From assembly GCF_006345805.1 (NCBI RefSeq), contig NC_043004.1, positions 34,658,001 to 34,722,000 of the forward strand: a stretch of 64,000 nt of DNA, in the 5' to 3' direction. Shown here one piece after another: positions 3,057 to 40,299 of this stretch. Numbering within the stretch: the stretch's first letter is position 1; every line of letters begins with the position of its first letter. The notes under the pieces are model-generated. The model was not told the DNA's origin and did no database searches. It saw only the letters and a list, made by a program, of their open reading frames with translations. This DNA comes from Octopus sinensis (lineage: Eukaryota). The position numbers and the translations under genes are program-made.

Positions 3057-3291
3057 GTGTGTGTGTGTGTGTATATATGTATATGTATGTCCATATATAT
3101 ATATATATATAATAATAAATATTAGGGAATAAATCCAAATTTACAGGGAAAAATCAGATTTAGGATTGAATCCAATTTTATAGTAAAATATTATATAATA
3201 TTAATTAGAGACAAAACCACTATTTTGCAAATCAAACAAGGAAAGACTTAATCAATACATAAAAAAAATTTAATATAAAGTAAATAAATCG

Positions 3292-3335
3292 CCACTACAA
3301 TTGTTTCCTGTCTTCAAATGACATTCATCAGGTGG
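3292..3335 (-). ncRNA. Minimal type-I hammerhead ribozyme motif (mirror copy)
   Basis: Minus strand reads ccac-CTGATGA-atgtcatttgaagacag-GAAA-CAATTGTA-gtgg, with a fully Watson-Crick helix I (ccac/gtgg). Confidence 0.7.
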
Positions 3336-3385
3336 ATTTCATATCTTCTATTCAATTTTAAAGTTATGAATAGAAGATATGAAAT

Positions 3386-3429
3386 TCACCTGATGAATGT
3401 CATTTGAAGACAGGAAACAATTGTAGTGG
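3386..3429 (+). ncRNA. Minimal type-I hammerhead ribozyme motif
   Basis: tcac-CTGATGA-a-tgtc(atttgaa)gaca-g-GAAA-C-AATT-GTA-gtgg. Helix I is tcac/gtgg, helix II tgtc/gaca, helix III has a palindromic loop (CAATTG), and the cleavage triplet is GUA. Confidence 0.7.
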
Positions 3430-3516
3430 CGATTTATTTACTTTATATTAAAATTTTTTAATGTATTGATTAAGTCTTTCCTTGTTTGATTTGCAAAATA
3501 GTGGTTTTGTCTCTAA

Positions 3517-16506: not shown

Positions 16507-16541
<35 letters not shown>

Positions 16542-16542
<1 letters not shown>

Positions 16543-16837
16543 TGTTGTGTCTGGGGAGAGTCATTTTCTTTTTGTGCCTTATAATTTATCACATTCACCA
16601 GTAAAATTTCCACTTATTCCTTATTTTTGTTTTCCTAAACTTTTCGTTGCATCTTCCAACCTTTCAATAGTCATGACTTTTAGGAAAATAAAAAGAAGAA
16701 AAAAAGGGGAAATTTTACCAGTGAGTGTGTTAAATTATAAGGCACAAAATGAAAATGACTCTCCCCAGACACAACAGAATATGCTTCAACACACGAACTC
16801 ACATAAAGAAACTTGCAAGCCAAATCCCAAAACAAAA
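16542..16837. mobile_element. Fold-back element (inverted arms within 16542-16777, unpaired 60-bp tail to 16837); second copy at 47966-48207
   Basis: ctgttgtgtctggggagagtcattttc...gaaaatgactctccccagacacaacag. Both copies share the same start (ctgttgtgtct) and end (aaaacaaaa). This copy is flanked by (TA)n. Confidence 0.85.
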
Positions 16838-19256: not shown

Positions 19257-19489
19257 AAGGTGGCAAGCTGGCAGAAACGTTAGCACACCGGGCGAAATGC
19301 TTAGCGGTATTTCGTCTGCCGTTACGTTGTGAGTTCAGATTCCACTGAGGTCGACTTTGCCTTTTACCCCTTCGGGGTCGATAAATTAAGTACCAGTTGT
19401 GCACTGAGGTCGATGTAATCGACTTAATACCTATGTCTGTCCTTGTTTGTCCCCTCTGTGTTTAGCCCCTTGTGGGTAGTAAAGAAATA
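19257..19489 (+). mobile_element. Family-A tRNA-derived SINE (Deu/Nin-like core), full length, TSD ggtatga
   Basis: A box tggcagaaacgttagc, B box gagttcagattcc, core gccttttaccccttcggggtcgataaattaagtaccag. ggtatga is duplicated at 19250-19256 and 19490-19496. Nested in a minus-strand family-D/RTE 3' UTR remnant (~19205-20030). Confidence 0.93.
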
Positions 19490-20162
19490 GGTATGATGGG
19501 ATCCAATGCCCTTTTCAAAGTCAGCCACCTTACCAAGTGTAACTAACTGCCAAATTTCACGGCACCAGCACCACTGATGTCACCAAGAAACTTGAAAGAC
19601 AAAGGAAGAATAAGACATTTTGACTGGAAGAGGTTTTAGTAAAGAGTGGAGTGGGGGGGGTCTAGGATTTATGCCAAGTGTTGAGTCTAATTTATGAAAA
19701 AGGAAATAGGCTGCAGGTGTCTTGTTACTCCTTATGACATAAGAGTGGATGGAAGCAGATATGAAGAAGGCAATGAGATGTCAGAGTGTACTCTCAAAAT
19801 ACAGGAGGGAAAATATCAGAGAGAATATGGACTTTATGAAGGGTGAGTGGGTAAGGTCCTAAGAGTGTAAGATGAGGGGTGATAGGTTGGTTAGAGATGG
19901 GGCTGGGGGGCAGAGGTGATTATGACAAATGGACCAAGAATGAATATGTGATGGATGGTAAATATGGTGTGGTGGGGAGCTGAAAGAATCACGAGGAGAT
20001 GATAAGTAGCAACAACAGGAAGGATCAAGAGACGTTTTTAATTTTTTGCCTCATTTTGGTATTAATTTATAGGAGCAGAAAACAGTGCTATATTTAAGGG
20101 ATGAGGAATTATGTACATTATTTACATTTGACGAGTATTTGTCCTCATCTTGTTTGTTGTTA

Positions 20163-20206
20163 ACACAACGTTTCAGCTGATATACCCTCCAGCCTTCATC
20201 AGGTGT
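20163..20206 (-). ncRNA. Minimal hammerhead ribozyme motif
   Basis: Minus strand: acac-CTGATGA-a-ggctgg(agggtata)tcagct-GAAA-CGTT-gtgt. Helix I is acac/gtgt and helix III is the palindrome AACGTT. The mirror copy at 20451-20495 has decayed (GAAAC to AAAAT). Confidence 0.6.
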
Positions 20207-20280
20207 CTTGGGGAAATTTCAAACCTTGGTTCTCGTTCCTAAGGTATTTTTCAATGTTATTATTATTATTATTATTATTA

Positions 20281-20318
<38 letters not shown>

Positions 20319-20351
20319 TATTATTATTATTACTGTTATTATTATTATTCA

Positions 20352-20423
20352 GGTTACTGCCTAGAATCAAACTCGGAATCTTGGGTTAGTAGCCCACGCT
20401 CTTAACCACTATGTCATATGCCC
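20352..20423 (-). other. tRNA-like Pol III promoter unit (SINE head/pseudo-tRNA) inside the fold-back element
   Basis: gggcatatgacatagtggttaagagcgtggg-CTACTAA-cccaagattccgagtttgattctaggcagtaacc. A box, anticodon-like stem-loop and B box are present, but the acceptor stem is poor. Confidence 0.75.
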
Positions 20424-21235
20424 ATGGGCATATGGTGAAATTTCTCCAAGACACCTGATGAAGGCTTGGAGGCTATATCAGCCAAAATGTTGTGTTAACA
20501 ACAAAGAAGATGAGGACAAATATCCATCAAATGTAAATAATGTAAATAATGTACATAATTCCTCATCTCTTGAACATAGAACTGTAATAAAAACTGCTTC
20601 TATATCTGTAATTCAAAACTGAATATTTAAATGCTGTTGCTAAAACAGAAAAAGTTGCAGCAAAAGTAGAATCCAATACCCTAAGACATATCACAAAGTT
20701 CTTATGATGAGTCTTATTGAGAATAAACTTTAATACTAGTGGAGAAAATATTTTAACTTAAAAAGCCAGGTTGATAAATTTGATAAGGTGTTGGGTGCGG
20801 AATACTTCAATAAACAAATCTTACAATTGTTTGTTTGAGATGTTGGTCCATCCTTACTTTTAGTTTATCAAAGATTCTAGGCACTGACACATCACTTTGA
20901 CATTTTTGAGTGAAGAATTTGAAATCACAGAAGTAGTGATTTCTTTTGAATCTGTTCATTCTGATTTTTGACAACATTTAATGTTATGAAATCAGTTTTG
21001 CGATGAAGAATAAAACCATTCTGCTCAAACCTGAAAGAGCTACCTTAAAAATAGAAAAAGTTTGATGAATAGTTTACCTGAGTAAATTGAGATTGATGAC
21101 TTCTTCCACAGCTTCAGGTGTCCATGTTGTGTATATCAAGAAATACTCCATCTCAATGAAATAACACGGTGGTCCATGGAAAAGAAGAAGCAGAGAAGTT
21201 TTTATTTATTTAGTTTCGAAAACTTAGATTCATGC

Positions 21236-21363
21236 ATTGGTGCTAGGAAGGGCATCCAGCTATAGAAACCATGTGAAATTAGATTCTAAAATGGTGCCGC
21301 TCCCTGGCTTATCAGTTTCAGTCAAAGTGTCTAACCCATGTCAGCATGGGAAGCAGATGCTAA

Positions 21364-21395
<32 letters not shown>

Positions 21396-21460
21396 GGTGG
21401 TGGTGGTGGTGGTGACAGTGGTGGCGATGATGATGATGATGATGATGATGGTGATGGATT
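21236..21460 (+). mobile_element. Family-D retroposon with extended (GAT)/(GGT) tail
   Basis: ggaagggcatccagctatagaaac...catgggaagcagatgctaaatgatgatg. Confidence 0.8.
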
Positions 21461-21769
21461 ACATTATCTGATATTAATATCATATTCGAGTCCAAGTTTC
21501 ACACACAAGGCAAAACTAGGGATTTGTTATCAAAGCATTCTTTCCTTGTTTAAGAATCACAGAAGTCGTGCATGGAAATTAGTTATCCATTATTATTAGT
21601 GAAAGCATTTTTTCTAACCTCAGAAAAAAAAAAACTAACAACAACAAGAATCCTTTGGAACCTTGTTTCCAAACCACTAAACAGGCCAACAATTATTTAA
21701 TCCAGACGACAGCATGAAAACCAAGATACAGCTTTTGCCAGATCTATTCTCAGCAGAGTTGCTTTGTTA

Positions 21770-21810
<41 letters not shown>

Positions 21811-22311
21811 TGCATGAATATGTCTGTGCTGATTCATTTGTGTTTCTTTTTTGTTCCTTTTTTCCCCTATCTTTCACTGTTACCGCCTCAATTAACACTT
21901 GCGAAAACTTCCTCTTCCATCCACCTCTCCTGCCTGCCATTTGCCTCCCTCACTCCTATTGCGATTACAACAGACACCTATAGATCCCAATAGTTACACC
22001 TGAAGCTCATGGAATTTTCACAAATTTTGCCAGTTTTATTTAATTCATAAGTGATAATGGTTATTTGGTGACTGTAATCTTTGAGGCCTACATTCTCTGT
22101 CTGCAATGGCTAAAGGCTATAGAAGGTGTGTGTCAAGATAAGCCTATCTCAGTATTTCGAGTAAAAGAGGTCAACAGGACAACCACACCCTCCATCCACC
22201 TCATACAAACTTTGTTCCTGTATGTCAGTAATTGTGAGTCAACTGAGATGCCAAGGATGATGAAGTGGAGGCAATGAAGAACATGGAACAGCCATAACCA
22301 CCAGTAGCAAT

Positions 22312-22519
22312 AGGCAGCGAGCTGGCAGAAATGTTAGCATGCTGGGTGAAATGACTATTTCGTCTGCCGTTACGTTCTGAGTTCAAATTCCGCCGAGGTC
22401 GACTTTGCCTTTCATCCTATAGGGGTCGATAAATTAAGTACCAGTTACACACTGGGGTCGATGTAATCGACTTAACCCCTTTGTCTGTCTTTGTTTGTCC
22501 GCTCTATTTTAAGCCCCTT
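22312..22519 (+). mobile_element. Family-A SINE
   Basis: ggcagcgagctggcagaaatgttagc...gagttcaaattccgccgaggtcgactttgcctttcatcc...aagcccctt. Confidence 0.92.
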
Positions 22520-22710
22520 GGCTGATATGCCCTCCAGCCTTCATCAGTTGTCTTGGGGAAATTTCACCATATGCCCATGGGCATCTGACATAGTGGTTAA
22601 GAGCGTGGGCTACTAACCCCAAGATTCCGAGTTTGATTCCAGGCAGTAACCTGAATAATAATAATAACAGAAATAATAATAATAATAACAACAACGAAAA
22701 GAAATAATAA
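22520..22710 (+). mobile_element. Partial second copy of the 20082-20585 element (arm fragment, tRNA-like head 22579-22651, (TAA)n)
   Basis: ggctgatatgccctccagccttcatcagttgtcttggggaaatttcaccatatgcccatgggcatctgacatagtggttaagagc matches the reverse complement of about 20340-20483. Confidence 0.88.
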
Positions 22711-23272
22711 CCACCAGTACCAACTTCCTCCACCACCACTTCCACATCTTCCTCTTCCCCATTCTCCTCCTCCTCCTCATCATCATCCTTATGTCATCAT
22801 AGTCGTCATCATTTTTTATGGAAGGTTCTAAACCCAATACCTACCTACCTACCAGTAAGGCAGCTTACTGAATGACAATGACAGCTGAACATATAAGAAA
22901 GTTATTTTCAGCCAATATCTACCAGTCTTAAATCTCTGGAAATGTCACCAAATTCTTACATAACCAATAATACTGGTTGCTTGCTAAAATAACTTATTTT
23001 AAAGCTTCTGTCAACAACAATACGAAAGATGGACAGTGCCAAGAGAGAAAAAAATGGTAAAGAGCGGAGAGGTTAAGGTATAAAACGATTAAGAAGAATA
23101 CTTTCTAATTCTCATTTGAGAGAATGGATTTGCTTTAAATCATTTACAAGATTTCTATTTAAATAAATCTGCAAAGAATGGAATCATTCTAATAAAAGAT
23201 TCATGATTTACATTTCACAAAAATTGAGAAATATCAAAAAGTCAGTGTAATAATAGCTGAGAAAGAGAGTGA

Positions 23273-23316
<44 letters not shown>

Positions 23317-24359
23317 GAGATAGAGAGAATGTATGTTTGCTGAAGTTGACTATAATTAAAACCTGAAGCAAAATGCCTCTATTTCCTGTTTTAAAAATGG
23401 TTTAAATGTTTCTAAATAACTCTACAGATATTGATTATTTAATCAAAATAATTTCACTTGTCGGATATATTTTAATTAATAATTAATAGTTAATTCTTCA
23501 GAAATAGCAATAATCCATAGATTCGATACTTTGTGTTACAAAAGTGGAGAAGAAACACAGACGGATTTATCCAAAGAAAATTTACCAATCTATGGCATAT
23601 AATTTTCCACAAAGTGTTTCCCTCCCTTCCTTACTTATCATTCCTTGACACCTGTTCATAGTATTCGCCCTCTTACCTATTCCCTACCTGTAATCATACA
23701 TTCAGGCAATCTTCACCCATCCACACTTCCCATTTTGTTCTCACTCAAGTTTACTCAACTAGTGCCTTGTGGAGTCACTGACACCTCGTCAATGCTGGTC
23801 TAATCTATCATTCCACTTCAACTCAGCCCACATCCATTTTTTCTTTTATAATATGAGCAACCTTGCAGCCCCTCCCCCCTACTGCAAGAAACCTGTTCTG
23901 GACCTTCTCTTTATTCTCTCTTTATCCCTGTTCTGGACCTTCTCTATTCACTTAATCCCTTCATCCCATAGCATAAGGCATGGTGAGGGAGGTTAACTTC
24001 ATACCCACCTCTCTACATAATCCTATTCTTCTGGTGTTATAAAAATAAATACTAACTATGTACCAAGAGTGATTCAATTCTCTTGCGATATCCTTCAAAG
24101 TACTGTCAGGCATAAATGGAAAAAATACTATTATTACTATCATTGAGAGAGCAATGCATGTCATCAAAGTGACACTGGGGTAAAATATATGAAGCCCAGT
24201 ATACCCATCATGACTTCTTGTCTGATCAGAGTACACCAGGCACATGCATCACGACCATATGTGCACAACATGGTGCTCAGAATTTTCTTCAGGTTGAGTA
24301 GCCCATTCTGCTCAAGAGGTCCCTGAATAAGGTTTGTTAATTATTATTATTAGAGTCCC

Positions 24360-24960
24360 CTAAAGTCGACTTTGCCTTTCACACTTTCAGGTTTGATAAA
24401 ATAAGAATCAGTTGAAGATTGGGGTTGGTTATTCAACTTACCCCACCTCTTCCAAAATTGCTGGTCTTGTATGAAATTTTGAATCCTTAAAATTTATTAT
24501 CATTAAAATGGCAAGCTAGCAAAACCATTAGTACACTGGACAATAATGTCCAATATTATGTTTTGAGTTCAAATTCCGCCAAGGTTGACTTTCTCTTTCA
24601 TCCTTCTGGGATCGATGAAATAAGGATGTGTTAAGAACTGGGACTGATGCAATGAACTTCCCTCTCACCTCAAAAACTGCCGGCCTTGTATAAAAATTTG
24701 AAACCATTACTATTACTATTGTTGTTGTGTAAGAGTCCAACCCATGCCAGCACGAAATATGGACGTTAAATGATGATAGAGAGTGGCAGGTTGGCAACTT
24801 GTTTAGAACATTTGACAAAATGTCTTTTTTCTGTTTACTTTTAACCCTTTTGCATTCTGAATTTGGATTCAGTAGACATTCATATTGTCTTTCATCATTC
24901 CAGGGGTTGATAGCTTTATTTAACTCAACCCTGAATCTGACCTTGTACCTATGGTAGAAC
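24360..24960 (+). mobile_element. Cluster of three decayed family-A SINE pieces and a family-D tail
   Basis: Core motifs (gtcgactttgcctttc, gagttcaaattccgccaagg, ctttcatcattccagggg) near 24365, 24565 and 24890. Family-D tail at 24735-24778. Confidence 0.7.
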
Positions 24961-27900
24961 TTTATTTATTTCACGATGATGTTTCTCAGGCTTAGGTAGC
25001 CCTGCTGCATGAGGTTTCATTACAGTATCCATCTTACAAAAGTGAGAGACAAATATTCTCCAGTGGAAGAAACTGTAAAAATTTATTGATTTTACAACAG
25101 CAAACCAACAATGCAATATTTGATTTCACAATGTTAACAAAGTCTGTTGTGGTACCTAATATTAGTTAAGTGGACTGAGTTACTGAGTTCTGAATATGTC
25201 GGCTATTGACATATCACAGTACCATCAAGAAGATGGGAACCTACAGCCATTAGCTTAGTTTTCCTGTATGAAGTTAACCTCTCTCACCATGATGTTTATG
25301 TCACTGAGTATGTCATTAATTTCTTTGATGAAATTTGGAAATTTATTTTCACAAGACAAGAATTTAGCTTTATGAACACAGCCATATCACCTAACAGCTA
25401 CATCTCCCACAACCATCACACCTTCTAACTAAGACAAATCAATTATCGAACCTTTAAGATACCAAAATACTATCAATAATTAAGCAGTATATACCAGTAT
25501 CACCCAAAAACTCATTGGTCTACACCAATAGTTGGCACTAACGAAACATTAGTTTCTCAGAGAAACAAAACTTTTGTTAAGTCTCATTGCAAAGTTGATA
25601 AATGGCTGGCATTTGCAACCATTATTAAGAAAAATAATTAAGTCCCTATCACTGGTAAGTTTCTAATTACACTGCCAGTGCAATTACTGCAGTCTGCTGT
25701 GATAATCTAGCCACTCATTCAATTAATGTCGCTATTACATTGGAAACATCATAGATTAGACGAGAAAAACACTATAAATCATGTTTGATGTGATAAGAAA
25801 CCTAATTTAACAAATTTCTCAACTGTTACTATAGTTTCAAATCCAGCTTTTATTTGAAATTCAAATGTTACAATTTGAATTCATAACAGACAGAAGAATT
25901 TTACAGTGCTGAGTTTGGTAATGTTACATTTATTACATGGTGTTTGGGTCAAGGCAAACCAAGTCTATCATTCTTTGAAGATCACTGCTAACCAACAATA
26001 AACTAAATAGAAGTTAATTAGAATTAGATGTCAGTTACTTACCATTACTTCAAGAGGGAAGTTAATTAAAGAGAGAATTTTGATATAAGTTGGATAGCAT
26101 CACCTTGGTAATTGAACTCTGTTTTAATATTGAACGGAAAGTAAACAATGTAGGATGATATCCCATAGAAGCAGTGGTGTGAGTTCCATAGAGTTATAGG
26201 TTCAATTCTCAGTTGAACTGTATCATTTAACTTACTCTTCAAATTTAACTAGATCAATAAATTTAATGCAGAATATCAAATATTTAATTAGAATAATTAA
26301 TGTCATGATGAAAGAACATTAGCTCATTGGTAAGAGAAACTCTCGGTGTGTTTCTCTTTTATTAGATCTCTTCAATAAAACATAGACTTTATCAGAACTG
26401 ACCAAGTGGAAATGAGCAAATCACTAAGTAAGATTATATCATTATATCTCAAAGAAGCATGATAATTAGCATAATTAGGGGAAAACAAACAAACCTAATG
26501 CTGAGGTTAATTACTCAGAAATGCCATCTGCATTGGAAAGTGACAGTTAAGTAGGGATGATGTCATTTAAAGTAAAGCATCAATAATTTCATTGGAAATA
26601 CAAATGTGAGGAAAAGATGAGAACAGTAGCTAAGTGACATGTTTCAATCTCATTAGACCTCCTCAGCAAAACATAGACTTCAAAGCTTAGAAAGGGATAA
26701 GTTCAAGGAGTTGGACTAACTCTTGGCACACTACCCGGAATCAAAGTATTTAGTTTGAAACAAACACAATATAAACAGCAGCATACATCTTTATAAAATC
26801 ACTGGCTTTTGTTTGATATACACTACTTGAAGTTAGAAGCTGACGTCTTCAATGGTGCATATGTTACAATCTGGAACTTCAAACATTGTAATGACAAGAA
26901 TAAATGAAAAAGATTGTAGATTTTGAGAACAAAAATGATCTTTCTACTCTGAAAAAGCAGCTTTGAGGGAAAATATTTTTTCATCTTAGGTGCAGAAACA
27001 GAGAAACGAGTAAAACCTTCCCACAAACAGAACATATTTAAAACTGATTGCATAACCTTCTACCTCCATCCTTTTACCAACATCCTTAATATGTCTGCAA
27101 CTCTTCATCAAGCTAACCACTTTATCCAATCCTTCGTTCTCGTAACTTCATACTTTTAATTCTTAGATGCATTTACACAGTCTCTCGCCTTCTCATAATT
27201 TTATTCCTATTACAGCCTTCAACACTTCTAATTAAACATTACTCATAACGACTATATAATTACCATTCTCTCTTTAGTACAAAGAACATGAAATGGCAGA
27301 GAGTATTGCCTGTTCTCCTAAAACTATCCACTAAAAGAAATTAAAGTCAGCTTTGCAACAGAGGGAGTCTTTGTTAAGCCACAAATCATCCTGATGTCTA
27401 TTAACACTTTCAAGCTTTCATTTAAATAAATAATTTCCTTCCCATCCCATAATTTTTTCCCCTCAAATATTTTAATGACACCTTTAAAATATTTTCAAGT
27501 CTGTCCAAAGTCTCCTTGATCTGAATTTCAGAGATGTTCATGTGTGGCAAGCCATTGAGTTTGAGATTATGAATTGAAAATAAACCATTGCAGCATGAAA
27601 AACACTTATTAACTATTCAAAACCACACAGAAATTGTTAACTGTAATTAAACGTTCGTTAATTGCTGTCAAAATCTTCATCATATCAATTGCAACCAGGT
27701 CATTGACATGGTCCGTCTCTACAGCTAGTTTGAAGTGAGGCTATTGGTCAGTTTATATATATTGACCAGCAATAACATCTAGAACAACTGATTTACATAG
27801 AAGGATAAACCTCTGAAACCGATGTATGCTGACCAAAAACCTCACCTCAAACCAGTCGCAAAAGAGTCAGTGGCAAGGTTGCAGTTAGTGTGAAGAAAAT

Positions 27901-29554
27901 GTTGACACCAAATAATAAATGTTTAAGTGAAGTTAACAGGTTTTGTGCATTTCTGAATGACTAACCACACTTTGTCCTCCATGCTGCTATTGTCTTTAAT
28001 CAGACCTCACATAACGCAATTTAATCAAACTGAAGCAAAAATACATTTCTCACCAAAGAACACAAAAAAAATCAGCTTGCTATCATGGTAACATAAAATC
28101 TCTTCTATTCTCCATAAATTGGTGAGTTTCCTAACTCATTAGATTATAGATTAACGAATAATGATTGCTTCTACATGTGTTGAGTTTAGTATAAATGAGT
28201 ATGGCGAAGACTCATTACCTCTAAGCACCATGAGGTGTTGAACCAAAAGCTGAAAAAGAGTTAACAAGGCAAACACACTCCTTGCTTTTACAATGTCTGT
28301 GAACTAAACCACCAAACAGTATCTGCAGAGTTGTTGATACAATTAGCAGCACATAAAGCGTATAAGTGATGGAGGAGGCTGCAGAATTAATGGTAATATA
28401 TAAACATACAAACTTTGGTTAGTAGTACAGCACCCTATTAACCATGCTTTTTGTGACTTGTCATTGCGTCTATTTGTTTTTATATTAATTGAAACGGTTC
28501 TTTAACTCGGTTAAATCTGTCTTTGGAGAATACCAGTTTCTTTATGTGGAAACTAGACTCAGCTAGGTTTTTTCATATGCCATGGAAATAATTTAACTGG
28601 AAAAGTAGTGACAATATAATTATGGATGTGGTAGGAATCAATCAATATGTTTATCAGGTAAGCAAGTAATACTTGCACACATTATCTAACCACATTCCAT
28701 TCTTAAACTTTTTCTAGTTCCCTGTACAGTTATGAATGTTTAAACAACATTAAAGGAATATGCCAAATTATGAAAGTACATTTGTTTGCTAACAAAGGAA
28801 AGAAAGTGAACATAAACTAAATAAATAAATAAATGCAACATTTTGAAGCAGTGGCTAGCGTTTGATGTAAGAAACAGTTTGGTTTGGTAGCAAAACATAC
28901 AAACTTCAGCTATAAACAATTTTACTGTGAAAGGTAATGGCAAAGCTTCAGAATGCTAAGATTTTTCTCAGAGATAATTTTTTTTTTTTTTAACGTAAGC
29001 ACAGCAAAGAAACATATCATAAAGAAAAGCACCAGTGACACTTTTGAAAGGAAAACTTCAACAAAATAAAAATATCCAGAATTTTCCCGTGACTAACGTG
29101 CATTGATTTTTTTTTTTTTTTTTTTTACATATCAGAGTAATGTTTAAGGAAAGGAATTACTTTGCTATTTTGTTTTGTCATTTTATTTATTTTGCTTTTT
29201 TTTCTCTGATTCTCAAGAATTATATAAATATTTTTTTTAGTAAGTCTTTAGTAAGTCTTTTTGTGAAAAAAACAAAAAAATTCTCTAAAGTAATATATGG
29301 GTTAAAGAGCACTTCTTTAAAATGAGGCTTATCATAGATGGCTGAAAGGCAGCGCTGCATATTTCGGTAACAAAAATAGTATTTTAAAACATTATATTTT
29401 ATTTGGAGCTGCAAGTCAAAGTTCACTATTTCTGTTTTCTGACTAAACTCAACCAATATAATAACAACATTTTAAACTTAAGAACATCTCATAAGTCTTT
29501 AGAAGGTAATAAGTTAACCAAAAATAACTGTAGGCAGCTGTGTGTATACCTGTC

Positions 29555-29589
<35 letters not shown>

Positions 29590-29924
29590 TCATGGGGAAT
29601 ATCTAGAAATAGTAAGCATTAATTTGAATGAACTCTTTGTAAGATATTTATAGTCATAGAGCAGAAATGCAGTTAAAAAGAGAGAGAGAGAGAGAGAGAA
29701 ATTTCTGTCAGCAAAACACATTGACCAAAGATAAACAGAGTTCAGAATGATTTATACTGAGGCAAGCGACCGACCGTTGAAATAATAACTGGTGGTGAGA
29801 AGAACACACAGGGACACCTTATGCAAAAAAAAAAAGCAACACAGAAACTGTCCAGTTTCTCCCCATTACTCTTTTAAGTTGTCATCATTTGTCAGCATCT
29901 AGCAGTGTTCATACACTAAAACTC

Positions 29925-30425
29925 GAATAGGTGGAGAAAGTTCAGAGAGCTCCTACCTCTGTTGGCAACAAAAGGACTTTCCTCTCTCTCTCAGAGTGAA
30001 AGGTAGACTGTATGATGCTTGTGTATGAACAGCTATACTCCATGGTAGTGTAACATGGGCTCTGAATGCAGAGGGCATGCACAGACTAGAGAGAAATGAA
30101 GGCAGTATACTCTGTTGGATGTGCAGTGTCAATGTACATGAATGACAAAGAGCAAATGTGTTGGGAGAAGAGATGGACATAAGAGGAATCAAATGCAGCA
30201 TGCAAGAGAGGAGACTATGTTGGTTTGGACAGGTGATGCGTATGACTGAAGACAGCTGTTTAAAGAAGTGCTGGTCACTGAAAGTGGATGGCACCTGTGG
30301 AATAGGGAAACCCAGGAAGATGTGGGATGAAGTGATGCGGACCGATCTCAGGATGTAGGGACTCACATAGGAAATGATACTGATCTGAGATGGCTGGTGA
30401 TATGAGGATCTGGAAAAGACCCACC
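29925..30425 (+). pseudogene. RTE-clade LINE, C-terminal ORF fragment
   Basis: WRKFRELLPLLATKG / SLRVKGRLYDACV*TAILHGSVTWAL...LERNEGSILCWMC / QERRLCWFGQVMRM...CLKKC...VDGTCGIGKPRKMWDEV, typical of the RTE post-RT domain (LRWFGHVxRM, GRPxKxW). Confidence 0.9.
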
Positions 30426-30833
30426 CATGTTAGCAAACCTGAGTTCTAGGAGCGTTGTGTCCCACAATAAAACTCTCCCACACCCCTACCCCGACAAACC
30501 AAACTACATCCCTTCCCCTTCCCTTCCCAAAGTACTTCTCTTCTCTTCTTCACATTTCTCCTTCATACACTATGATTATCTCTCACTCCTCAATCCAGTC
30601 CTCACTAACCTACTCACTGCATCACTGCTCCCCCATCATCTCCTCCTCTATATACCCCACATTCTCTCCAGGCATTGCATTCCCCCACTCCCCACTCACG
30701 ACACCTTGACAGTACCCTGCCAGTAGCTTCCTCAATTCATCTCCCTCTTCTTTACTCTACCATCCCATCTATGCTGCCTTAATCCCTGTTCCTGGCACTT
30801 GCTGCCATCCTGCCCCTGCTCCTGCGGTCTCCT

Positions 30834-30865
<32 letters not shown>

Positions 30866-31018
30866 CCTTGCTCTCTCCTCTGGATGAGTAACCATGTATC
30901 TCCTTCACAGCAGTACACCTCTTCTTAACTCCCACTCTCTCTCTAGGTAACTGTTTCTGCCCTTATTCTTGTTAACTCTTGCTCTCTTTCTCTCCCTCTC
31001 TTCCTCTCTCTGTCTCTG

Positions 31019-31057
<39 letters not shown>

Positions 31058-31478
31058 CCAGGTAACTATGGGTCTCATCTAAGCTTCCATCATCTGACAC
31101 AAGATCCTTCCTCCAATGCCCCCTCCCTTCTCAAGGACTCCTTGTTTTGCAGAGCCACTTGCTGACCCTTCCAGCGCTGGTGCCGATTAAAAAGCATCCA
31201 GTCCCCACTGTAAAGTGGTTGGCATTTGGAAGGGCCCTCAGCTGTAAAAACCACACCAAAACTGACCTTGCCTGTGCGAGTGCCACATAAAAATCCCTCA
31301 GCTCATTCTATGGAGTGGTCGGGTTTGGAAGTGTATCCAGTTGTAAAAGCCATGCCAAAACACACTCAGAAGCATGGCATAGGCCCTAGCCTGGCCAGTT
31401 CCTGTCAAACCGTCCAACCCATACCAGCATGGAAGGAGGATGCTAAATGATGATGATGCTGATGAGGATGGTGATGAT
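29925..31478 (+). mobile_element. 5'-truncated RTE LINE including its pyrimidine-rich 3' UTR and (GAT)n tail
   Basis: The ORF remnant continues into a C/T-rich UTR and ends ccaacccataccagcatggaaggaggatgctaaatgatgatgat, the tail shared with family D. Confidence 0.8.
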
Positions 31479-32123
31479 TCCTACATGGTAACAGAAAACA
31501 TTAGAATGAAATAATATAAATATGCTGCCACAAGATAATGTAATGCATGACAAATGATCATGTCAAATGGCACTCAATGCTTTAGCTCGTTAATGTTAAT
31601 TTATGCTCTTAAATAGATGAGTAATCATTATCCCCTGAAAAAGATAATTTAGAGTAACTGCTCCAAAGAGCTATTAGTTATCCTAAACGTTTGTGAATTA
31701 TCCAAATACATAAAGAAAAGCCTGCGATGGATTTGAACACCGAATCTATAAGATGGCAGCCTATTATTATTCCCATTTAGAATATAATTATGAAAGTAAT
31801 AACAGATATAGTCATTATATGGAATAAATAACTGCTAGCTGTTAATATCTGCTGGCAGTTAGCAAAGGAAACCTAAATTTATTTTGAAAAAAAAAACAAC
31901 AGTTAAATAATTTCAAACCACCATAGCTTTCATAAAAATGAAGAAATCATAACCTTCCTCATCATTGCTGGCATCATCATCATCATCGTCATCATCATAA
32001 AAAGCTACACCACAATGTGTCGTGTGTGTATTTATCGAACATGACACAAAATTGTTATGATTTTTAGCTGATAACTTGGATCTCATGAAACTATTGGGGC
32101 TACACTGTAATTATATATAATTA

Positions 32124-32445
32124 CCTTGGCAAATGTCTTCTACTATAGCCTCGTGAGTGGATTTGGTAGTGGATTTGGTAGACGGAAACTGAAAGAAGCC
32201 CATCGTATATATGTATATATATATGTGTATGTGTGTCTGTGTGTCTGTGTTTGTCCTCCCAACATAGCTTGACAACCTATGCTGGTGTGTTTACATCCCT
32301 GTAACTTAGCGGTTTGGCAAAAGAGACTGATAGAATAAGTACTAGGCTTACAAAGGATAAGTCCTGGGGTTGATTTGCTCAACTAAAGGCGGTGCTCTAG
32401 CATGGCCACAGTCAAATGACTGAAACAAGTAAAAGAGTAAAAGTG
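32124..32445 (+). mobile_element. Family-B SINE, 5'-truncated
   Basis: ccttggcaaatgtcttctactatagcc...gactgaaacaagtaaaagagtaaaag. Confidence 0.9.
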
Positions 32446-33607
32446 AGAAATATATAGATACATATATACACGCACACATATATGGACAACAGACATTAAA
32501 TGATGATGGCGATGACGATGATGATGTATATATATTTATATGTGTGAGTAAAAAATTGCAGAGAAGGAAGAGTATATACACCTGTGCCTCTCTTCCAGTC
32601 ATAAAAATTTATTAGATTTCATTTAATTACACGACATACCTTAAGGTTATTGTCAACTCACTGAAATGTTCAGATGCACAATTTGGAAAGAAGACATTGA
32701 ATTAATTTGTTTCCATGTCTCTGTAAATGTAAATCTGACAAATATGAAACCGTTAACATAACAGCTGGAATATATTCAACCATTAAGTGAAACTGTGTAA
32801 ATATTTTTGAATATATATACTGAAGGAAGTATACAGTTCTATGGAAATGCTTGCAGTTTCAATTCAAGGCACACAAATTTCAATGGAAAGTAATGGGTTT
32901 GAACCCTCAGATGTGATGTTCCCTTTATAGTTAGTAGCAAGTTGGTTGAGGAATTTAAAACAGGCTGTTCATATTTACCTTTAACATAGTATTAACTGAA
33001 ATCATTAAATCAATCGTTGTTGAAGCATTTTGTTTTAGCTAAAATATATGATCAGAATATTAATTAGCAGTTAAGTGCTGCAGCTTTTATATTCTGCCCA
33101 TGGTGATCAATATAAATTTGGGCATCTTAATGTATGTGTGTGTGTGAGCATGTGTGTATATGTGTGTGTGTGTTGAAGAGAGAGAGAGAAAGATGAGGTC
33201 ATTCTGTCTGTCTAGGATCTGTGAACGCTGAAGAGCTGCTAAATATATTACAAGTTGTATGTGAATCATTTCAAACTACAAGTAATGTATTTTATTTACA
33301 TATATTACTTGCATTTAACATGGAAAAATATCTACTTGTTAATGTCTTGTTGTGCCATTACTGAAGGCTCATAGAATTCACCCTTCTCAAGGCTTTCAAC
33401 AAGAAATGAATAGAAAAAAAAAAGCACAATATAAACTGCAGATGCAAGTTTTAAGAGAAATATGTTTTTGGCATCAGCCATCATGCAATATGTAGGATAT
33501 GGCATGTATAATACACAACCTATATAACATATGCATGCGAAACAAAATACAATGCACAGCATATATGTCAAGAATATGTGCTAACTGTAATATATATAAT
33601 ATTTCAT

Positions 33608-33642
<35 letters not shown>

Positions 33643-33729
33643 AAATATATATATCTGTGTGTGTGTATATATATATGCAAATGTATATACATGCATGTAC
33701 ACACAGAAAAACACACACGCACATATAAG

Positions 33730-33910
33730 TGTGGCCATGGCTGGCTATAGACACAGGTAGTGATGTTAAGAAGCCTGCTTTGCCACAATATGGTCTCAGG
33801 TTCAATCTCACTGAACAACACTTTGGGCAAGTGTCTTCTACTAGAGCATCAGGTTGATAAATGCCTTATAAGAGAAATTGATAGACAGAAATTGTGCAGA
33901 AGCCTGCTAT
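33730..33910 (+). mobile_element. Family-B SINE 5' half, decayed
   Basis: ggttcaatctcactgaacaacactttgggcaagtgtcttctactag...agaagcc. Confidence 0.7.
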
Positions 33911-34119
33911 ATATATATATATATATATTTGAAGACTCATATTCTCATTGAATTCTCGGAGGATTAGATAGACAACTGATTAAGGGTCCTTTCTCTGTGT
34001 TTATTTGTCCTGTTTCCCATTTTTTCCTCGTTGTTTACATATTTCACTCATTTTACCCTTGCTTGTTTATGTATTTAACATTATTTGCCCTGTTGATGAC
34101 ATCCTGTACCCATATAAGC

Positions 34120-34162
<43 letters not shown>

Positions 34163-34165
<3 letters not shown>

Positions 34166-34490
34166 GGGCTTGGTGGTCTGAAATAATGGGGTTGTTTAGA
34201 TAAACACCTCCAGTTCCCCTTGCTAACACACTTAGCTCCCCACAAAATCATTCCGTTTTTAAGCTCCATCGTATCAACCCCTGAAATGTATAATTCTCCC
34301 CTGAAGATGGAGGCGGTGTTATCTGATAACGGATCCAAATAACTACCATTATTCGGGACTACCAAGACCCCAGAAACAGCTGTTGGACTCGTAAAACTTT
34401 ACCGATTTAACTCCTGATATCATTTATATTCTGTAATTCAGACTATTTTATCTCCATACACATGTACATTATTTCTATTAAATGTATCTA
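34163..34490 (+). mobile_element. Probable Penelope-like terminal fragment with a decayed long-stem-II hammerhead (34298-34387)
   Basis: ccc-CTGAAGA-tgg...(about 60 nt)...cca-GAAA-C-AGCT-GTT-gg, with palindromic CAGCTG. Begins directly after (TA)n. Confidence 0.45.
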
Positions 34491-34499
34491 ATAGAGCAA

Positions 34500-34885
34500 C
34501 AAGCTGGCCTTCGTGCCGATGGTACATTAAGCACACCATTCGAGCGTGATCGTTACCGCATCACCTTACTAGCACTTGTGCTGGTGGCATGTGAAATATT
34601 CGAGTTAGGTTGTCTCCAGTGCCGCTGGACTGGCTCCTGTGCAGGTGGCACGTAAATGTACCATTTGGGCATGCCTTTGCCAGTACCACCAAACTGGCCC
34701 TTGTGCCAGTGGCATGTAAAAGCACCCACTACACTCTCGGGGTGGTTGGCGTTAGGAAGGCCACCCAGCTGTAGAAACTCAGCCAGATCAAATTGGAGTC
34801 TTGTTTGCCAGACTTCAGTTAAATCGTCCAACCCAAGCTAACATGGAAACATGGAAAGCGGACGTTAAATGATGATGATGATGAT
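34500..34885 (+). mobile_element. Family-D retroposon, long form with internal tandem subunits
   Basis: Repeated gtgc(c/t)ggtggcacgtaaaagcac-like subunits followed by the family-D tail. Homologous to 55215-55768 and 63023-63366. Confidence 0.88.
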
Positions 34886-35804
34886 TCTGTGTAAATCGAC
34901 TTACCTAAATTGCATCTCAATACATTTACTCATGTGTGTGTGTGTGTGTGTTTGTGTGTGTGAGTGTGTGTGTGTATGTGTGTGTGTGTGTGTGTGAGTG
35001 TATAAAAACAAAAGGAACTAAAATAAAGCCAGTAACTGTAGCAGATATCTTTTGTTTACTGATTACACAGGCAACAATTTAGACGAGGGAGGAAGACTGC
35101 ATTGTCTTCTTCTCTCTCAAATTTAATACAAATGCCTTCGCTTGCCTACACTGTATACATTTCCTCCTGAATCAGCTCATCTGCTTCATCCAAATTCATG
35201 CACAATTTAACAGGAGAGAGAAATAGGCTGCTTTTCTTAATGACTTATATTTAGATAACTCATCTTGGTTTAATATATAGACTATAATTAACCTCGTGTA
35301 TGTGAATAAATTGCAAAATTTAACAATTAAGATTTTATTATAAACAACATTGAATATAATATGCAGTATATCACCACCACCACCACCACCACCACCTCCA
35401 CCACGATCGCCACCATTATCATTATTGTTGTCATCATCACCCTCAACATCAGCAGTAGCAGAACCATTAAAACCCTCCTCTACCATTACCACCACACCAA
35501 CTCACCATCACTTCACGTCTGCTTTAAATGTTAGCATTGGTTTGATGGTTAAACAGTGTACAATCAGTCAATGGATCGTATTTTATTCTAGCTCCTCAGT
35601 TTTGGCATGGTTTCTACAGCTGGATGCCCTTCCTAATGCCATCTTCTCTATGGAGGGCACCAAGTGGTTTTATTGTGGCCCCATCTCTATTGCACACACA
35701 CACACACACACAACTGTGACTCTGCTGGGGCAGCACTGTGAATTTTAGTTGAACAAATTGGTCACAACAGTTACTATATTCTTCTGCTTGGTATCTATTC
35801 TCTT

Positions 35805-36019
35805 AAGGTGGTGAGCTGACAGAAACGTTAGCATGCCAGGCGAAATGCTGAGTGGTGTTTCATCTGCCGCTACGTTCTGAGTTCAAATTCCGTTGAGGTC
35901 GACTTTGCCTTTCATCCTATCGGGGTCGATAAATTAAGTACCATATAATCGACTTAATCCGTTTGTATGTCCTTGTTTGTGCCCTTTGTGTTTAGACCCT
36001 TGTGGGTAGTAAAGAAATA
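35805..36019 (+). mobile_element. Family-A SINE with 15-bp TSD
   Basis: TSD ggtatctattctctt at 35790-35804 and 36020-36034, with A box, B box and core between. Confidence 0.95.
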
Positions 36020-36962
36020 GGTATCTATTCTCTTTAGTCTCTTTTGCCAAACTGATAACTTGGTTGTCAAGTAATGGTGGAGAACAATTTTCTTCTGACC
36101 TGTGTGAGCATGGAAAAATACATGTTAAAATAATGATAATTGCAATGACGATGAAGATGATAACAAATCTGCTGCTGTTACTGATGCTGCTGTTACTGAT
36201 GCTGCTGCTGCTGATGATGAGGAGGAGGGGAAGGAGGGGGATGGGCTCTGCATGGCTTCACTCACAAGTTAAAAGACAACTCATGGCTACAGTCAAAGAC
36301 ATTTTTATCCCAATTTGCCGCACATTGTGATGAAACCAGAACCTCATGGCTGTGAGGTAAAGTTCTTAAACACTAGCTTTACTTTAAAATCATCCCTGCA
36401 ATCAATTTACAATAATTCTATCAAGATTTCAGTATTATATTCTTCAGTTTCAAATATATTTCAGCCTATTAAATTCAATGTCAATGCAAATATTTCATTT
36501 GGTTTCATAAATGTATCTATTCAAATCTTTTCTTATTGACCTCCTTAACATTTTCAGTGAATTGGATACATTGACTTCATTATACAAAAGATCGCACTTA
36601 AATTTCTCTATTGATAATGTTTATAAACCTATTTCTCTCACAGTTAGGTATCTTGGTGTTGGTTAGTTTGTTGTAACATGTCATCCTTTAGAAATAAAGA
36701 AATCTTATTACTATCCAGTTCATTTTTATTTTCATATTATCATTTGTAAATATTCTACAGAGAATTATTTATATTTATAACAAAAACATTATCCTAAATT
36801 TATTATGCTTATGTAAACCTAAAGCACTGTCTATATCTATACACTTAAATAATAATTCATAAACTCTCCACATTTGTCCACAGAAGTAAACTAATTTTGT
36901 TTTATTATTTTATGAATCTATTTTTTTGTAGTTACCTTTTATTTTCATTTACATTACTACAT

Positions 36963-37123
36963 TCTTGGAGTGGTTGGCATTAGGAAGGGCATCCAGCTGT
37001 AGAAACTTTGCCAGATCAGATTGAGCCTGGTGCAGCCTTCTGGCTCACCAGTCCTCAGTCAAACCGTCCAACCCATGCCAGCATGGAAAACAGACGTTAA
37101 ATGACAACGATGATGATGATGAT
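36963..37123 (+). mobile_element. Family-D retroposon
   Basis: ggagtggttggcattaggaagggcatccagctgtagaaac...gttaaatgacaacgatgatgat. Confidence 0.9.
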
Positions 37124-37346
37124 TTTTTTTTATTTACATTATAAATTCTATACTGTGTTTATGTCTGTTTTAGAATAGATTAACGATCAATCTCTGTTTC
37201 ATAGCAGGTGGCTAAAAGGGATTAGTGGAAAAAGATGGGCATTCAGCCATTAAACATTGCGTTAAAAAATGAGTGCCAGGAAGAGAACAATATGAAAGCC
37301 ATGGATCCTATTTGACTAATCCCAGCTTTAGCAGAGAAAATGGATT

Positions 37347-37565
37347 TATTCCTTCAGCATTCAGATTTCTCTGTCAAATGTAATGCTTATTTATTCATAT
37401 TGTTTTGAATTAATCATGCATTATCTTCTAGAAAAAAGATTACCATTGTATAGCTGTTTATTTTTAGAATGGCATTGTAGGGAAAATGTGAGAGGCTAGA
37501 TCTGGCCAGTTTAGAGTATAAAAAATTTGGACCAAATATGGCCAGATTAAATGCTAAAGAGTTAA
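37347..37565. mobile_element. Old piggyBac-like MITE
   Basis: ccttcagcatt...aatgctaaagagTTAA imperfect TIRs. Homologous to 7781-7998. Confidence 0.55.
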
Positions 37566-38006
37566 AACATTTGTCATTGGTATTTAGTACTATTTTCTAG
37601 TTATTTATAGCCAGTGACATAGTCAGGTGGCCAAGGAATTTGTATCCACAAGGTACTTGGTTCAATCTTACTGTGTGGCTTGTAAGGTGCTTTTCCTTTG
37701 AACCCTTATATAAGCCAATGCCTTTTGAGTGGGACCTGGTTGATAAAAACCATGTTATATCATCATCATCATCATTATTTTCATTTTTGCTCTACAAGAT
37801 GTCATGGATTGCACAAGACTTCTTAAGACTTATTCTGCAGCTAGATGACTTTCTTCAAACCAACCTTACTTTTTAAAGTAAGTTTGTCTACTGCCCATCT
37901 CTTATGCCAAATTGCTCTTTATGGGAGACACAAACACACCACAGCTGCTGAAATAGCAGGAAGACATCAGGAGATGATTATACACATACATTATATATAC
38001 ATATAT

Positions 38007-38385
38007 ATCATCATCATCATCATCATCATTCAACATTCATTTTCCATGCTGGCATGGGTTGGACAGTTTGACAGGATTTGGCAAGCCAGAGAGCTGCACC
38101 AGGCTCCAGTTGTCTGTTTGGCATGATCTTCTTTGACTGGATGCCCTTCCTAGTACCCACTACTTTACAGAGTATATTTGGCGCTTTTTACATGGCACCA
38201 GCACAAGTATTTTTTTACATGATAACAAAGCCAGCAATGGCACCAAGTAACTTGTAAGACAAAGACCTCTTAGTTGAGAGAGATTGAGAGTGGAACCAAG
38301 AGAAATGGCTGTGTGCCAGGTAAGAGTGTCATAAAGAGACAGAGATAGTTGTCTTACTATAGAGGAGATACTTGGCTAATCCAGT
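38007..38385 (-). mobile_element. Family-D/RTE 3' UTR remnant
   Basis: (CAT)n-tcaacattcattttccatgctggcatgggttggac...ggatgcccttcc, followed by RTE-UTR-like sequence. Confidence 0.8.
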
Positions 38386-38410
38386 ATGATACTCTATATG
38401 CATGCATACA

Positions 38411-38900
38411 TACAGAGTGCAATGGGTAAATTGTCACCATTTAATATTTATAATTTTGTGCATACACATCGTTTGTTTTTGATTTTGTCAACTACAGAAT
38501 ATAGTAGAATTGGTTGGGTAACATCTGTGAGAAAAACAGCACCATGACGCAATTTACAGAGTTTAAAATTTGGAAATAAAATGCTGTACTGTTTGGCATT
38601 TGCACCAGAAGCTCCAATACGAATATTTCAAAGTGTTTGAGTGTCAATCTGAGGAAATCTACTAAGAGTGATACAAATCAAATATCCAGTCAACGTCATG
38701 GTGTTTAGAGTAATCACTAGTGATGGCAATGTTATGCTTCCATTTATCTTCCCACACGGTCCAGGCTCAACATAGAGGCCTACATCAAGTGCCTGGAGAA
38801 GGTAGTGCTGCTCTGAGTGAAGAGGGTGGCTGCTGAAAGAAGGTGTACACTCAAGCACTCAAGTGAAGAGGGTGGCTGCTGAGGATGTACACTCAAGCAT
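38411..38900 (+). mobile_element. Internally deleted Tc1/mariner element (second family) with transposase remnants
   Basis: Starts TA-cagagtg. N-terminal MTQFT...AVLFGICTRSSNTNISKCLSVNLR is joined to the catalytic-region piece IKYPVNVMVFRVITSDGNVMLPFIFPHG / LNIEAYIKCLEKVVLL*VKRVAA. A ~48-bp tandem duplication sits at the broken 3' end (38816-38899). Confidence 0.8.

Positions 38901-40266: not shown

Positions 40267-40299
<33 letters not shown>

What the first reader, a model, noticed from the sequence alone, without database searches (positions are those of the whole stretch)
20082..20585. Fold-back hammerhead element with a built-in tRNA-like Pol III unit
Seen: two ~140-bp inverted arms, each with a hammerhead core (CTGATGA-stem-GAAA-CGTT, helix I acac/gtgt; intact on minus at 20163-20206, decayed at 20451-20495). 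They enclose a tRNA-like head (A box, CTACTAA loop, B box; minus 20352-20423) and an (AAT)n tract. The same arm-palindrome-tRNA-(TAA)n junction recurs at 22520-22710 in the opposite orientation, so the composite was copied as a unit. Established: Penelope-like elements carry minimal hammerheads in pseudo-LTRs that are often inverted, and SINEs use tRNA heads. Inference: Pol III starting at the head would run through (AAT)n into the left arm and read the intact hammerhead in sense, so self-cleavage could define the RNA 3' end. That would be a SINE/retrozyme hybrid mobilised by Penelope machinery, an architecture I do not recognise as described. Caveat: I see no run of four or more Ts on that strand before the ribozyme, which fits read-through but does not show expression.
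Basis: partly seen in the sequence, partly recalled or inferred. Interest (0 to 1): 0.82.

Follow-up and report, generated by a model that had tools for sequence, protein, structure and literature searches.

The report
tRNA-headed SINE riding Penelope machinery
A short non-coding repeat, likely from an octopus, joins a tRNA-like promoter head to a tail with a predicted hammerhead ribozyme; it likely spreads by borrowing the enzyme of Penelope-type retrotransposons, an unusual partner for a SINE, and its fold-back shape is likely a scar of each insertion rather than a fixed design.

Summary
The likely mobile unit is ~345 nt on the minus strand: tRNA-like head (20423-20350), (AAT)n, 35-nt spacer, and a 140-nt arm with a minimal type I hammerhead. 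Public contigs show a high-copy family with intact A/B boxes and hammerhead core; named chance translations place it in Octopus. (1) The fold-back is not a fixed unit. Fourteen other head-to-inverted-arm joints have different breakpoints, 5 of them exactly at the head's first base. Copies end at two sites 33-36 nt apart. With the junction palindrome, these are published Penelope-like (PLE) insertion marks. The 22.5-kb copy looks like a local duplicate. (2) Cleavage does not set the copied RNA's 3' end: 85 nt beyond the predicted site are in the copies. Best reading: a Pol III SINE mobilised by a PLE. No partner enzyme, expression or cleavage was shown; head-to-sense-arm linkage was seen at two loci only. 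Precedents exist for SINE plus hammerhead (Schistosoma Sm-alpha) and for non-autonomous PLE derivatives; I found no paper on the combination. This scan noted a ribozyme-free tRNA-like element with PLE marks in another genome (e1-7881736).

The parts
20350..20423 (-). tRNA-like head, predicted Pol III internal promoter (A box 20416-20406, anticodon-like loop 20392-20386, B box 20372-20364); predicted first base 20423
   Evidence: sequence; family majority letters at 20414 (94-99% by depth) and 20369 (67-83%) restore the boxes; 5 of 14 joints end exactly at 20423; no ARAGORN or Rfam call
20257..20349 (-). interrupted (AAT)n tract, internal to the unit
   Evidence: loose ends beyond 20336 continue as AAT repeats in 3 of 4 runs' listed rows
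20222..20256 (-). spacer between (AAT)n and arm; linked to the arm at other loci
   Evidence: chance translations P0002, P0040 and others run from a spacer ATG into the arm
20082..20221 (-). sense 3' arm, pLTR-like end of the unit
20162..20207 (-). minimal type I hammerhead motif; predicted cut between 20167 and 20166
   Evidence: 1 hit in window, 0 in 100 shuffles; matches the PLE minimal hammerhead features in PMC4209133; activity untested
20082..20117 (-). optional 33-36-nt tail between two family 3' ends (equivalent to 20550/20553-20586 on the right arm)
   Evidence: loose-end rows at 20550-20553 and 20584-20586 in the runs, table 7
20415..20434 (.). perfect 20-nt palindrome at the inversion junction, made of the head's first bases and their complement
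   Evidence: recurs with other jump points (joints 20429-20507, 20433-20509; P0023)
20436..20585 (+). inverted 5' copy of the arm with a decayed hammerhead (about 20450-20496); locus-specific length
22518..22710 (+). partial second copy (cut inverted arm, palindrome, head, short AAT) abutting a truncated unrelated SINE-like repeat; likely a local DNA-level duplicate
   Evidence: 9 differences from copy 1, shared decayed letters in the A box, B box and GAAA, no spacer or sense arm

Best explanation
This is one insertion of a high-copy, non-coding repeat whose tRNA-like head likely drives Pol III transcription and whose hammerhead-bearing 3' arm likely recruits the reverse transcriptase-endonuclease of a Penelope-like element, so it likely works as a SINE with a PLE partner. 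Steps: (1) Pol III starts at about 20423 and reads head, (AAT)n, spacer and arm to the first T4 (inferred from boxes and breakpoints). (2) A PLE protein binds the arm of the uncleaved RNA, nicks AT-rich DNA and primes inside the arm at one of two sites 33-36 nt apart (the two ends are shown; the enzyme is inferred). (3) cDNA runs to the head's first base or stops earlier (breakpoints shown). (4) Self-priming or a template jump adds an inverted piece of the arm of variable length, sometimes through a palindrome of the head's start (variable joints shown; mechanism inferred). The hammerhead is likely inherited as part of the PLE end and is predicted to be nearly inactive as a monomer; it does not set the end of the copied RNA.
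For: (contigs of 4 of the 24 listed runs laid on 20335-20700 at 80%): depth 10^5-10^6 over head and arm against 16-39 in the unique flank; family ends at 20550-20553 and 20584-20586. Fourteen distinct head-to-inverted-arm joints among the rows shown (15 of 165 in table 5, 12 of 163 in table 5c): 11 of 14 leave the head at 20417-20433, 5 of 14 at exactly 20423, and the landing points spread over 20474-20543. One joint, 20338 to 20466 on opposite strands in X1 and X2, links head plus AAT to a sense arm at another locus. One joint, 20589 back to 20541, is a partial tandem. Majority letters restore GAAA (76-89% by depth in 4 of 4 runs) and the CG of stem III (61-76% in 3 of 4 runs, 34% in X1). P0023 (O. 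bimaculoides model) reads palindrome plus head to the A box, then arm; P0005 reads antisense arm, then spacer and sense arm. Literature: inverted 5'-truncated copy and 30-40-bp tail (PMC8557442); junction palindromes, 31-bp tail and pLTRs sufficient in trans (PMC3846280); two internal priming sites, uncleaved template and AT-rich targets (PMC11167929); extra nucleotide between 9 and 10.1, short helix I and palindromic helix III (PMC4209133); PLEs make 6.83% of the O. vulgaris genome in 190 families (PMC13282606 supplement). Monomer hammerhead fold probability 1.4e-4.
Against: No autonomous partner was found: no RT-like ORF in the window by eye, and no RT-length protein among 38 hits or 3 hits, though only one reading frame of the arm was searched. 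Head-AAT-spacer-arm contiguity is seen in full only at this locus, plus one partial joint. What follows the (AAT)n in most heads is unknown; the loose-end consensus at 20336 is unreadable (agreement 0.58-0.67). In run X10 depth over the 5' part of the hammerhead is about a tenth of head depth (2,300-2,600 versus 24,000-42,000 flank units), as expected if many heads lack arms there, although three private changes in the reference copy distort this stretch. Joint sides are short (19-33 nt) and only the best-supported rows are shown, so the clustering may be biased. No target-site duplication of 6 nt or more. The head does not fold as a tRNA. Helix covariation was not demonstrated.
Confidence: 0.72

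Rival explanations
1. An ordinary LINE-dependent tRNA SINE with an (AAT)n tail, of which only a minority became fused to PLE ends (template switch at AAT, or PLE insertion into the AAT tail); those chimeras then moved, or arose repeatedly, through PLE machinery.
For: PLEs favour microsatellites and ATT sites; arm 3' depth is about 8-11 times head plateau depth in X1 and X2, so most arm copies carry no head; X10 depth ratio; copy 2 has head plus AAT without arm; octopus genomes are rich in tRNA SINEs.
Against: At this locus the inverted arm sits on the far side of the head, joined through a palindrome of its first bases, and no AAT follows the arm's 3' end, so simple nesting does not explain it; 11 of 14 joints fall at the head's 5' end; spacer plus arm is a fixed unit in at least 8 other records.
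Confidence: 0.18
2. Retrozyme-like cycle: the hammerhead is active in vivo (as a dimer or with protein help) and cuts Pol III transcripts; the 3' product, which keeps the enzyme-binding end, is the template of the many short copies.
For: Core conserved family-wide; depth rises steeply across the predicted cut; 13 of 14 inverted pieces start 3' of it, 4 of them within 5-9 nt; Sm-alpha and animal retrozymes self-cleave; the PAc hammerhead cleaves with protein help.
Against: No listed joint starts at the cut itself (20492); full-length copies must come from uncut RNA; no tandem array of full units was seen; ordinary 5' truncation and the reference copy's private indel at 20466 give the same ramp.
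Confidence: 0.12
3. One reading: a fixed fold-back composite copied as a unit, with self-cleavage making the 3' end of the transposing RNA.
For: Same junction twice in the window; the whole composite would fold into one long hairpin (-225 kcal/mol).
Against: Depth at the junction base is at most a few hundred against 10^5-10^6 around it; breakpoints differ between loci; sequence 3' of the cut is in the copies; copy 2 shares decay with copy 1 and lacks the ribozyme arm.
Confidence: 0.04

Closest known systems
Endonuclease-positive Penelope-like elements (Penelope/Poseidon, Neptune) and their pLTR ends
   Same: Minimal type I hammerhead with the extra nucleotide; inverted 5'-truncated copy; junction palindrome; optional 30-40-nt tail; partial tandems; AT-rich flanks
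   Different: No ORF; the body is a tRNA-like Pol III head plus (AAT)n instead of an RT-endonuclease gene; it would not need an upstream pLTR as promoter
Schistosoma Sm-alpha / Sj-alpha SINE-like elements
   Same: tRNA-related Pol III element followed by a hammerhead (seen only in passages of PMC2770079 and PMC6765202; original papers not seen)
   Different: Those carry canonical, self-cleaving hammerheads that free units from multimeric transcripts, often in tandem; no PLE-type inversion or tail is described in the passages seen. Here the motif is the minimal PLE type, the unit is dispersed and the uncut RNA is copied
Animal non-LTR retrozymes and other non-autonomous PLE derivatives (e.g. 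Chlamydomonas MRC1)
   Same: Non-coding, type I hammerhead, proposed to use PLE enzymes (bioRxiv 10.64898/2026.07.22.740005; PMC7229834; PMC8557442)
   Different: Retrozymes are tandem repeats giving circular RNAs; the preprint has no mention of tRNA or Pol III. Here a single hammerhead per unit and a Pol III head
Octopus tRNA-derived SINEs of Ohshima and Okada 1994 (OR1, OR2; a third family, recalled as OK)
   Same: tRNA-derived heads in Octopus (citations only)
   Different: OR1 and OR2 are cited as CORE-SINEs; this head runs straight into (AAT)n with no room for a central domain. The paper is not held, so the family may already be named there or in Repbase/Dfam/SINEBase without its PLE link
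Helenus and Ajax (tRNA/5S-containing non-autonomous LTR elements)
   Same: Small-RNA-derived promoter in a non-autonomous element with a non-LINE partner (listing and reference passages only)
   Different: LTR-retrotransposon partner, no hammerhead

Membership tests
PLE-type non-autonomous element | minimal type I hammerhead near the 3' end | tested here: met
   descriptor, 1 hit, 0 in 100 shuffles; majority letters
PLE-type non-autonomous element | inverted, 5'-truncated copy of the 3' end at the 5' junction, variable between insertions | tested here: met
   this locus plus 14 joints with different breakpoints; P0005
PLE-type non-autonomous element | optional 30-40-nt tail (two 3' ends) | tested here: met
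   loose ends at 20550-20553 and 20584-20586
PLE-type non-autonomous element | palindrome at the inversion junction | tested here: met
   20415-20434; two further joints and P0023
PLE-type non-autonomous element | 3' end shared with an autonomous RT/GIY-YIG element | tested here: inconclusive
   no genome held; one frame searched, no RT-length hit
PLE-type non-autonomous element | target-site duplication (present in some PLE insertions only) | tested here: not met
   no direct match of 6 nt or more in about 45 nt of each flank; PLE insertions without TSD are reported
tRNA-derived SINE | A and B boxes at tRNA spacing at the 5' end | tested here: met
   box consensus recalled, not from a call
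tRNA-derived SINE | detectable homology to a parent tRNA | tested here: inconclusive
   ARAGORN and Rfam give no call on the decayed copies
tRNA-derived SINE | dispersed, high copy number, no ORF | tested here: met
tRNA-derived SINE | LINE-derived or A-rich/simple-repeat 3' terminus with TSD (LINE partner) | tested here: not met
   at this locus the simple repeat is internal and the end is a PLE-type arm without TSD; other heads unknown
tRNA-derived SINE | Pol III transcription | not testable with these tools
   only contigs were available
Non-LTR retrozyme / Sm-alpha type | tandem units with two hammerheads in the same sense | tested here: not met
   one sense hammerhead per unit here; only short partial tandems of the arm end seen
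Non-LTR retrozyme / Sm-alpha type | self-cleavage and circular RNA | not testable with these tools
   monomer fold predicted at 1.4e-4 of the ensemble; no assay
Hammerhead ribozyme (family-level structure) | helix covariation | tested here: inconclusive
   codon pairs across stem II in 26 peptide matches are mixed and confounded by CpG decay

The most novel reading that the evidence does not exclude
A class of SINEs that use Penelope-like elements instead of LINEs as their partner: a Pol III head frees a PLE end from needing tandem arrangement for transcription, and the family has spread to thousands of copies across Octopus, possibly with a sister family (hint: P0037) and analogues in other animals.
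Probability: 0.55. Interest if true: 0.7.

Novelty: new variant of a known kind. Interest (0 to 1): 0.55.

Why it matters
SINEs are generally treated as LINE parasites (recalled, and stated for comparison). A tRNA-headed element with PLE insertion marks would extend them to a third retroelement class and might explain part of the large 'unclassified SINE' fraction in octopus (893 of 900 recently active SINE families). Because it has a defined first base and many independent insertions, it is a natural dataset for the unexplained PLE inversion/palindrome step and for whether the PLE hammerhead is ever used in vivo. It also suggests a compact RNA cargo design for PLE enzymes. All the parts have precedents, so it is a new combination rather than a new mechanism.

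Tried and rejected
No genome is held, so no assembly-wide count could be made. Rfam whole-window and local scans gave no hammerhead or tRNA match, only chance miRNA/snoRNA hits. ARAGORN gave nothing on the heads, even relaxed. DNA pattern scans: metagenomes 0 and 1 unrelated locus, viral contigs 0, prokaryote genomes 6 loci with 18-26-nt chance matches. Two protein searches with chance translations of the head found nothing, so they say nothing on head-spacer linkage. No RNA holder was listed; X17 is only guessed to be RNA and contigs cannot show strand or ends, so it was not used for expression. Depth was not used as copy number: overlapping short contigs can inflate it up to about 30-fold (my reasoning from the 31-letter word size), so 20,000-40,000 head and 200,000-320,000 arm units support only roughly 10^3-10^4 and 10^4-10^5 copies. 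The near 1:1 head-to-hammerhead depth in X1, X2 and X17 was not accepted as proof of linkage, given X10 and the reference copy's private changes. Rejected: fixed fold-back unit; cleavage as the 3'-end maker; a MITE/DNA transposon (the 'terminal inverted repeats' vary in length between loci); a one-off scar (recurrent joints); a functional tRNA gene. P0001 was dropped as a repetitive artefact. Rows left out of the count of 14 joints: 20338-20466 (reported separately), 20456-20509 (arm-internal), 20589-20541, 20582-20538, 20583-20520 (arm end to arm). Not held: PMC4795812, PubMed 7932738; their text and supplements may name this family. bioRxiv supplements could not be seen.

Full report
Observation. 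All described parts are present. The arms 20082-20221 and 20436-20585 are inverted and 85% identical. The minus-strand arm holds a minimal type I hammerhead: core at 20202-20196, one extra A, a 6-bp stem II, GAAA, a palindromic CG, TT and a 5-bp stem I. It is the only hit of my descriptor in the window and was never met in 100 shuffles. Between the arms, on minus, lie a head starting at 20423 with A- and B-box-like motifs at tRNA spacing, about 93 nt of (AAT)n and a 35-nt spacer. A perfect 20-nt palindrome (20415-20434) joins the head's start to the right arm. ARAGORN and Rfam recognise neither the head nor the ribozyme, so these names rest on motif and spacing; the box consensus is recalled. 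The first T4 on the sense strand is at the element's end.

Source and abundance. No genome is held. Twenty of 24 listed runs, under five organism labels, hold at least part of the stretch. I laid contigs of four runs on 20335-20700 at 80% identity; most of the (AAT)n, the spacer and the left arm were outside that stretch, which leaves direct head-spacer linkage untested by this call. Depth is 16-39 in the unique flank, 0.2-1.0 million over the head and up to 8.2 million over the 3' part of the arm. Summed contig depth overcounts, so I take this as roughly thousands of heads and ten times more arm ends. A search with a chance translation of the arm returned 38 proteins: by eye 13 from this family, 24 from a sister family and 1 artefact. 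Two of eight looked up are named Octopus bimaculoides, and a further hit is O. sinensis. The window is therefore likely from an octopus.

The family is less decayed than these copies. By depth, the majority letter restores the A box (20414, 94-99%), the B box (20369, 67-83%) and GAAA (20484, 76-89%) in all four runs, and the CG of stem III in three of four (61-76%; 34% in X1). Helix covariation could not be shown.

The fold-back is an insertion mark. Depth at the junction base 20436 is 292, 408 and 161 in the three large runs and 0 in X17, so this exact junction is rare. The joint tables show 15 of 165 and 12 of 163 rows; 14 distinct rows join the antisense head to a sense arm, as here. Eleven leave the head within 20417-20433 and five at exactly 20423, while the landing points spread from 20474 to 20543. 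The binomial values (7e-6 and 5e-7) assume unbiased display and are only indicative. Two joints include the palindrome and jump elsewhere. P0023 reads palindrome and head up to the A box and then arm; P0005 reads antisense arm, then spacer and sense arm. Family 3' ends pile up at 20550-20553 and 20584-20586, 33-36 nt apart, with AT-rich flanks. These are the marks described for PLEs: an inverted 5'-truncated copy and a 30-40-bp tail (PMC8557442, passages); junction palindromes read as self-priming, and pLTRs sufficient in trans (PMC3846280, passages); two internal priming sites that define the tail (PMC11167929, parts 1-2 of 4); and the minimal hammerhead with an extra nucleotide, also as opposite-strand pairs 100-700 bp apart (PMC4209133, parts 1-2 of 4). 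Because the inverted piece attaches at the head's first base, the head was likely part of the cDNA. That is the main argument that a Pol III RNA with a PLE end is the transposing unit.

The second copy (22518-22687) differs from the first at 9 columns, shares its decayed A box, B box and GAAA, lacks spacer and sense arm, and abuts a truncated unrelated repeat. It is likely a local DNA-level duplicate and is no evidence that the composite retrotransposes whole.

Role of the ribozyme. The predicted cut is between 20167 and 20166, yet 85 further bases belong to the element and are its deepest-covered part. The copied RNA was therefore not ended by cleavage. This agrees with the one PLE tested in vitro, where hammerhead mutants insert normally and cleavage needs the protein. 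The monomer hammerhead fold is predicted at 1.4e-4 of the ensemble. A role remains possible: 13 of 14 inverted pieces start 3' of the cut and 4 within 5-9 nt of it, but none at it.

Against my reading. The partner enzyme was not found (one frame only). Full head-AAT-spacer-arm contiguity is seen only here, plus one partial joint (20338 to 20466, X1 and X2). Two protein searches meant to test it found nothing. In X10 the hammerhead's 5' part has a tenth of the head's depth. Most arm copies have no head. No TSD was found. Expression, Pol III use and cleavage are untested.

Comparison. SINE-like Pol III elements with hammerheads are known from Schistosoma (passages of PMC2770079 and PMC6765202; originals not seen). 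Non-autonomous PLE derivatives are known or proposed (bioRxiv 10.64898/2026.07.22.740005, part 1 of 5 and passages; PMC7229834, passages). PLEs are abundant in O. vulgaris (PMC13282606, passages and supplement search). Passages only were seen for PMC4758252, PMC8967140, PMC4824008 and PMC10886601. Ten searches showed no paper describing a tRNA-headed SINE with a PLE end and PLE insertion marks. The library lacks most subscription papers, including Ohshima and Okada 1994, and repeat databases were not searched, so the family may be catalogued under another label. Earlier notes of this scan (unchecked): e1-7881736 reports a ribozyme-free tRNA-like unit with PLE-type insertions in another genome, which agrees with the general idea; e1-7811937 reports a one-off SINE-PLE scar, which supplied the rival that the recurrent joints here argue against.

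Verdict. A real feature. It works like a non-autonomous Penelope-like element with a SINE-type Pol III head (confidence 0.72). It fails the LINE-partner criterion of classical SINEs at this locus and the tandem criterion of retrozymes. New variant of a known kind; interest 0.55.

Noticed in passing
window about 3110-3500, centre near 3360: Near-perfect head-to-head palindrome; each arm holds a second, unrelated hammerhead-like core (CTGATGA, extra A, 4-bp stem, GAAA, palindromic CAATTG, TA) and runs out into (TA)n. It looks like a pure PLE-type fold-back of another family; it failed my strict descriptor.
   Followed up: partly
proteins P0023 and P0040; window-equivalent about 20529-20533: Two RefSeq gene models (O. 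bimaculoides dystrobrevin beta X1; O. sinensis LOC115224785 X2) begin with element-derived residues that stop at the same place in the arm, just before a GTAAAT; the arm may supply an alternative first exon and splice donor to host genes.
   Followed up: partly
proteins P0003, P0004, P0006 and 21 others: 24 of 38 hits (sorted by eye) belong to a sister family with a related hammerhead arm, often in tandem or inverted arrays; P0037 may join an antisense tRNA-like head to that arm (4 of 7 residues, weak).
   Followed up: no
window 20068-20078 and 20594-20604: The two flanks share an 11-nt inverted match with one mismatch just outside the arms, and depth is slightly raised at 20595-20607; either chance or an inverted copy of target DNA made during insertion.
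   Followed up: partly
window 22312-22520 and about 14 other places, e.g. 19263-19472, 44764-44975, 35813-36002: An abundant unrelated SINE-like repeat; the copy at 22312-22520 is cut where copy 2 of the element begins, with a short microhomology.
   Followed up: partly
window about 20215-20228 (minus): The spacer-arm boundary reads as a second B-box-like motif when the family's CG is restored (loose-end rows at 20467); possibly a remnant of another tRNA-like piece.
   Followed up: no
window 16537-16782, 62208-63197, 47964-48149: Further inverted-repeat structures of 46-250 nt, not examined.
   Followed up: no
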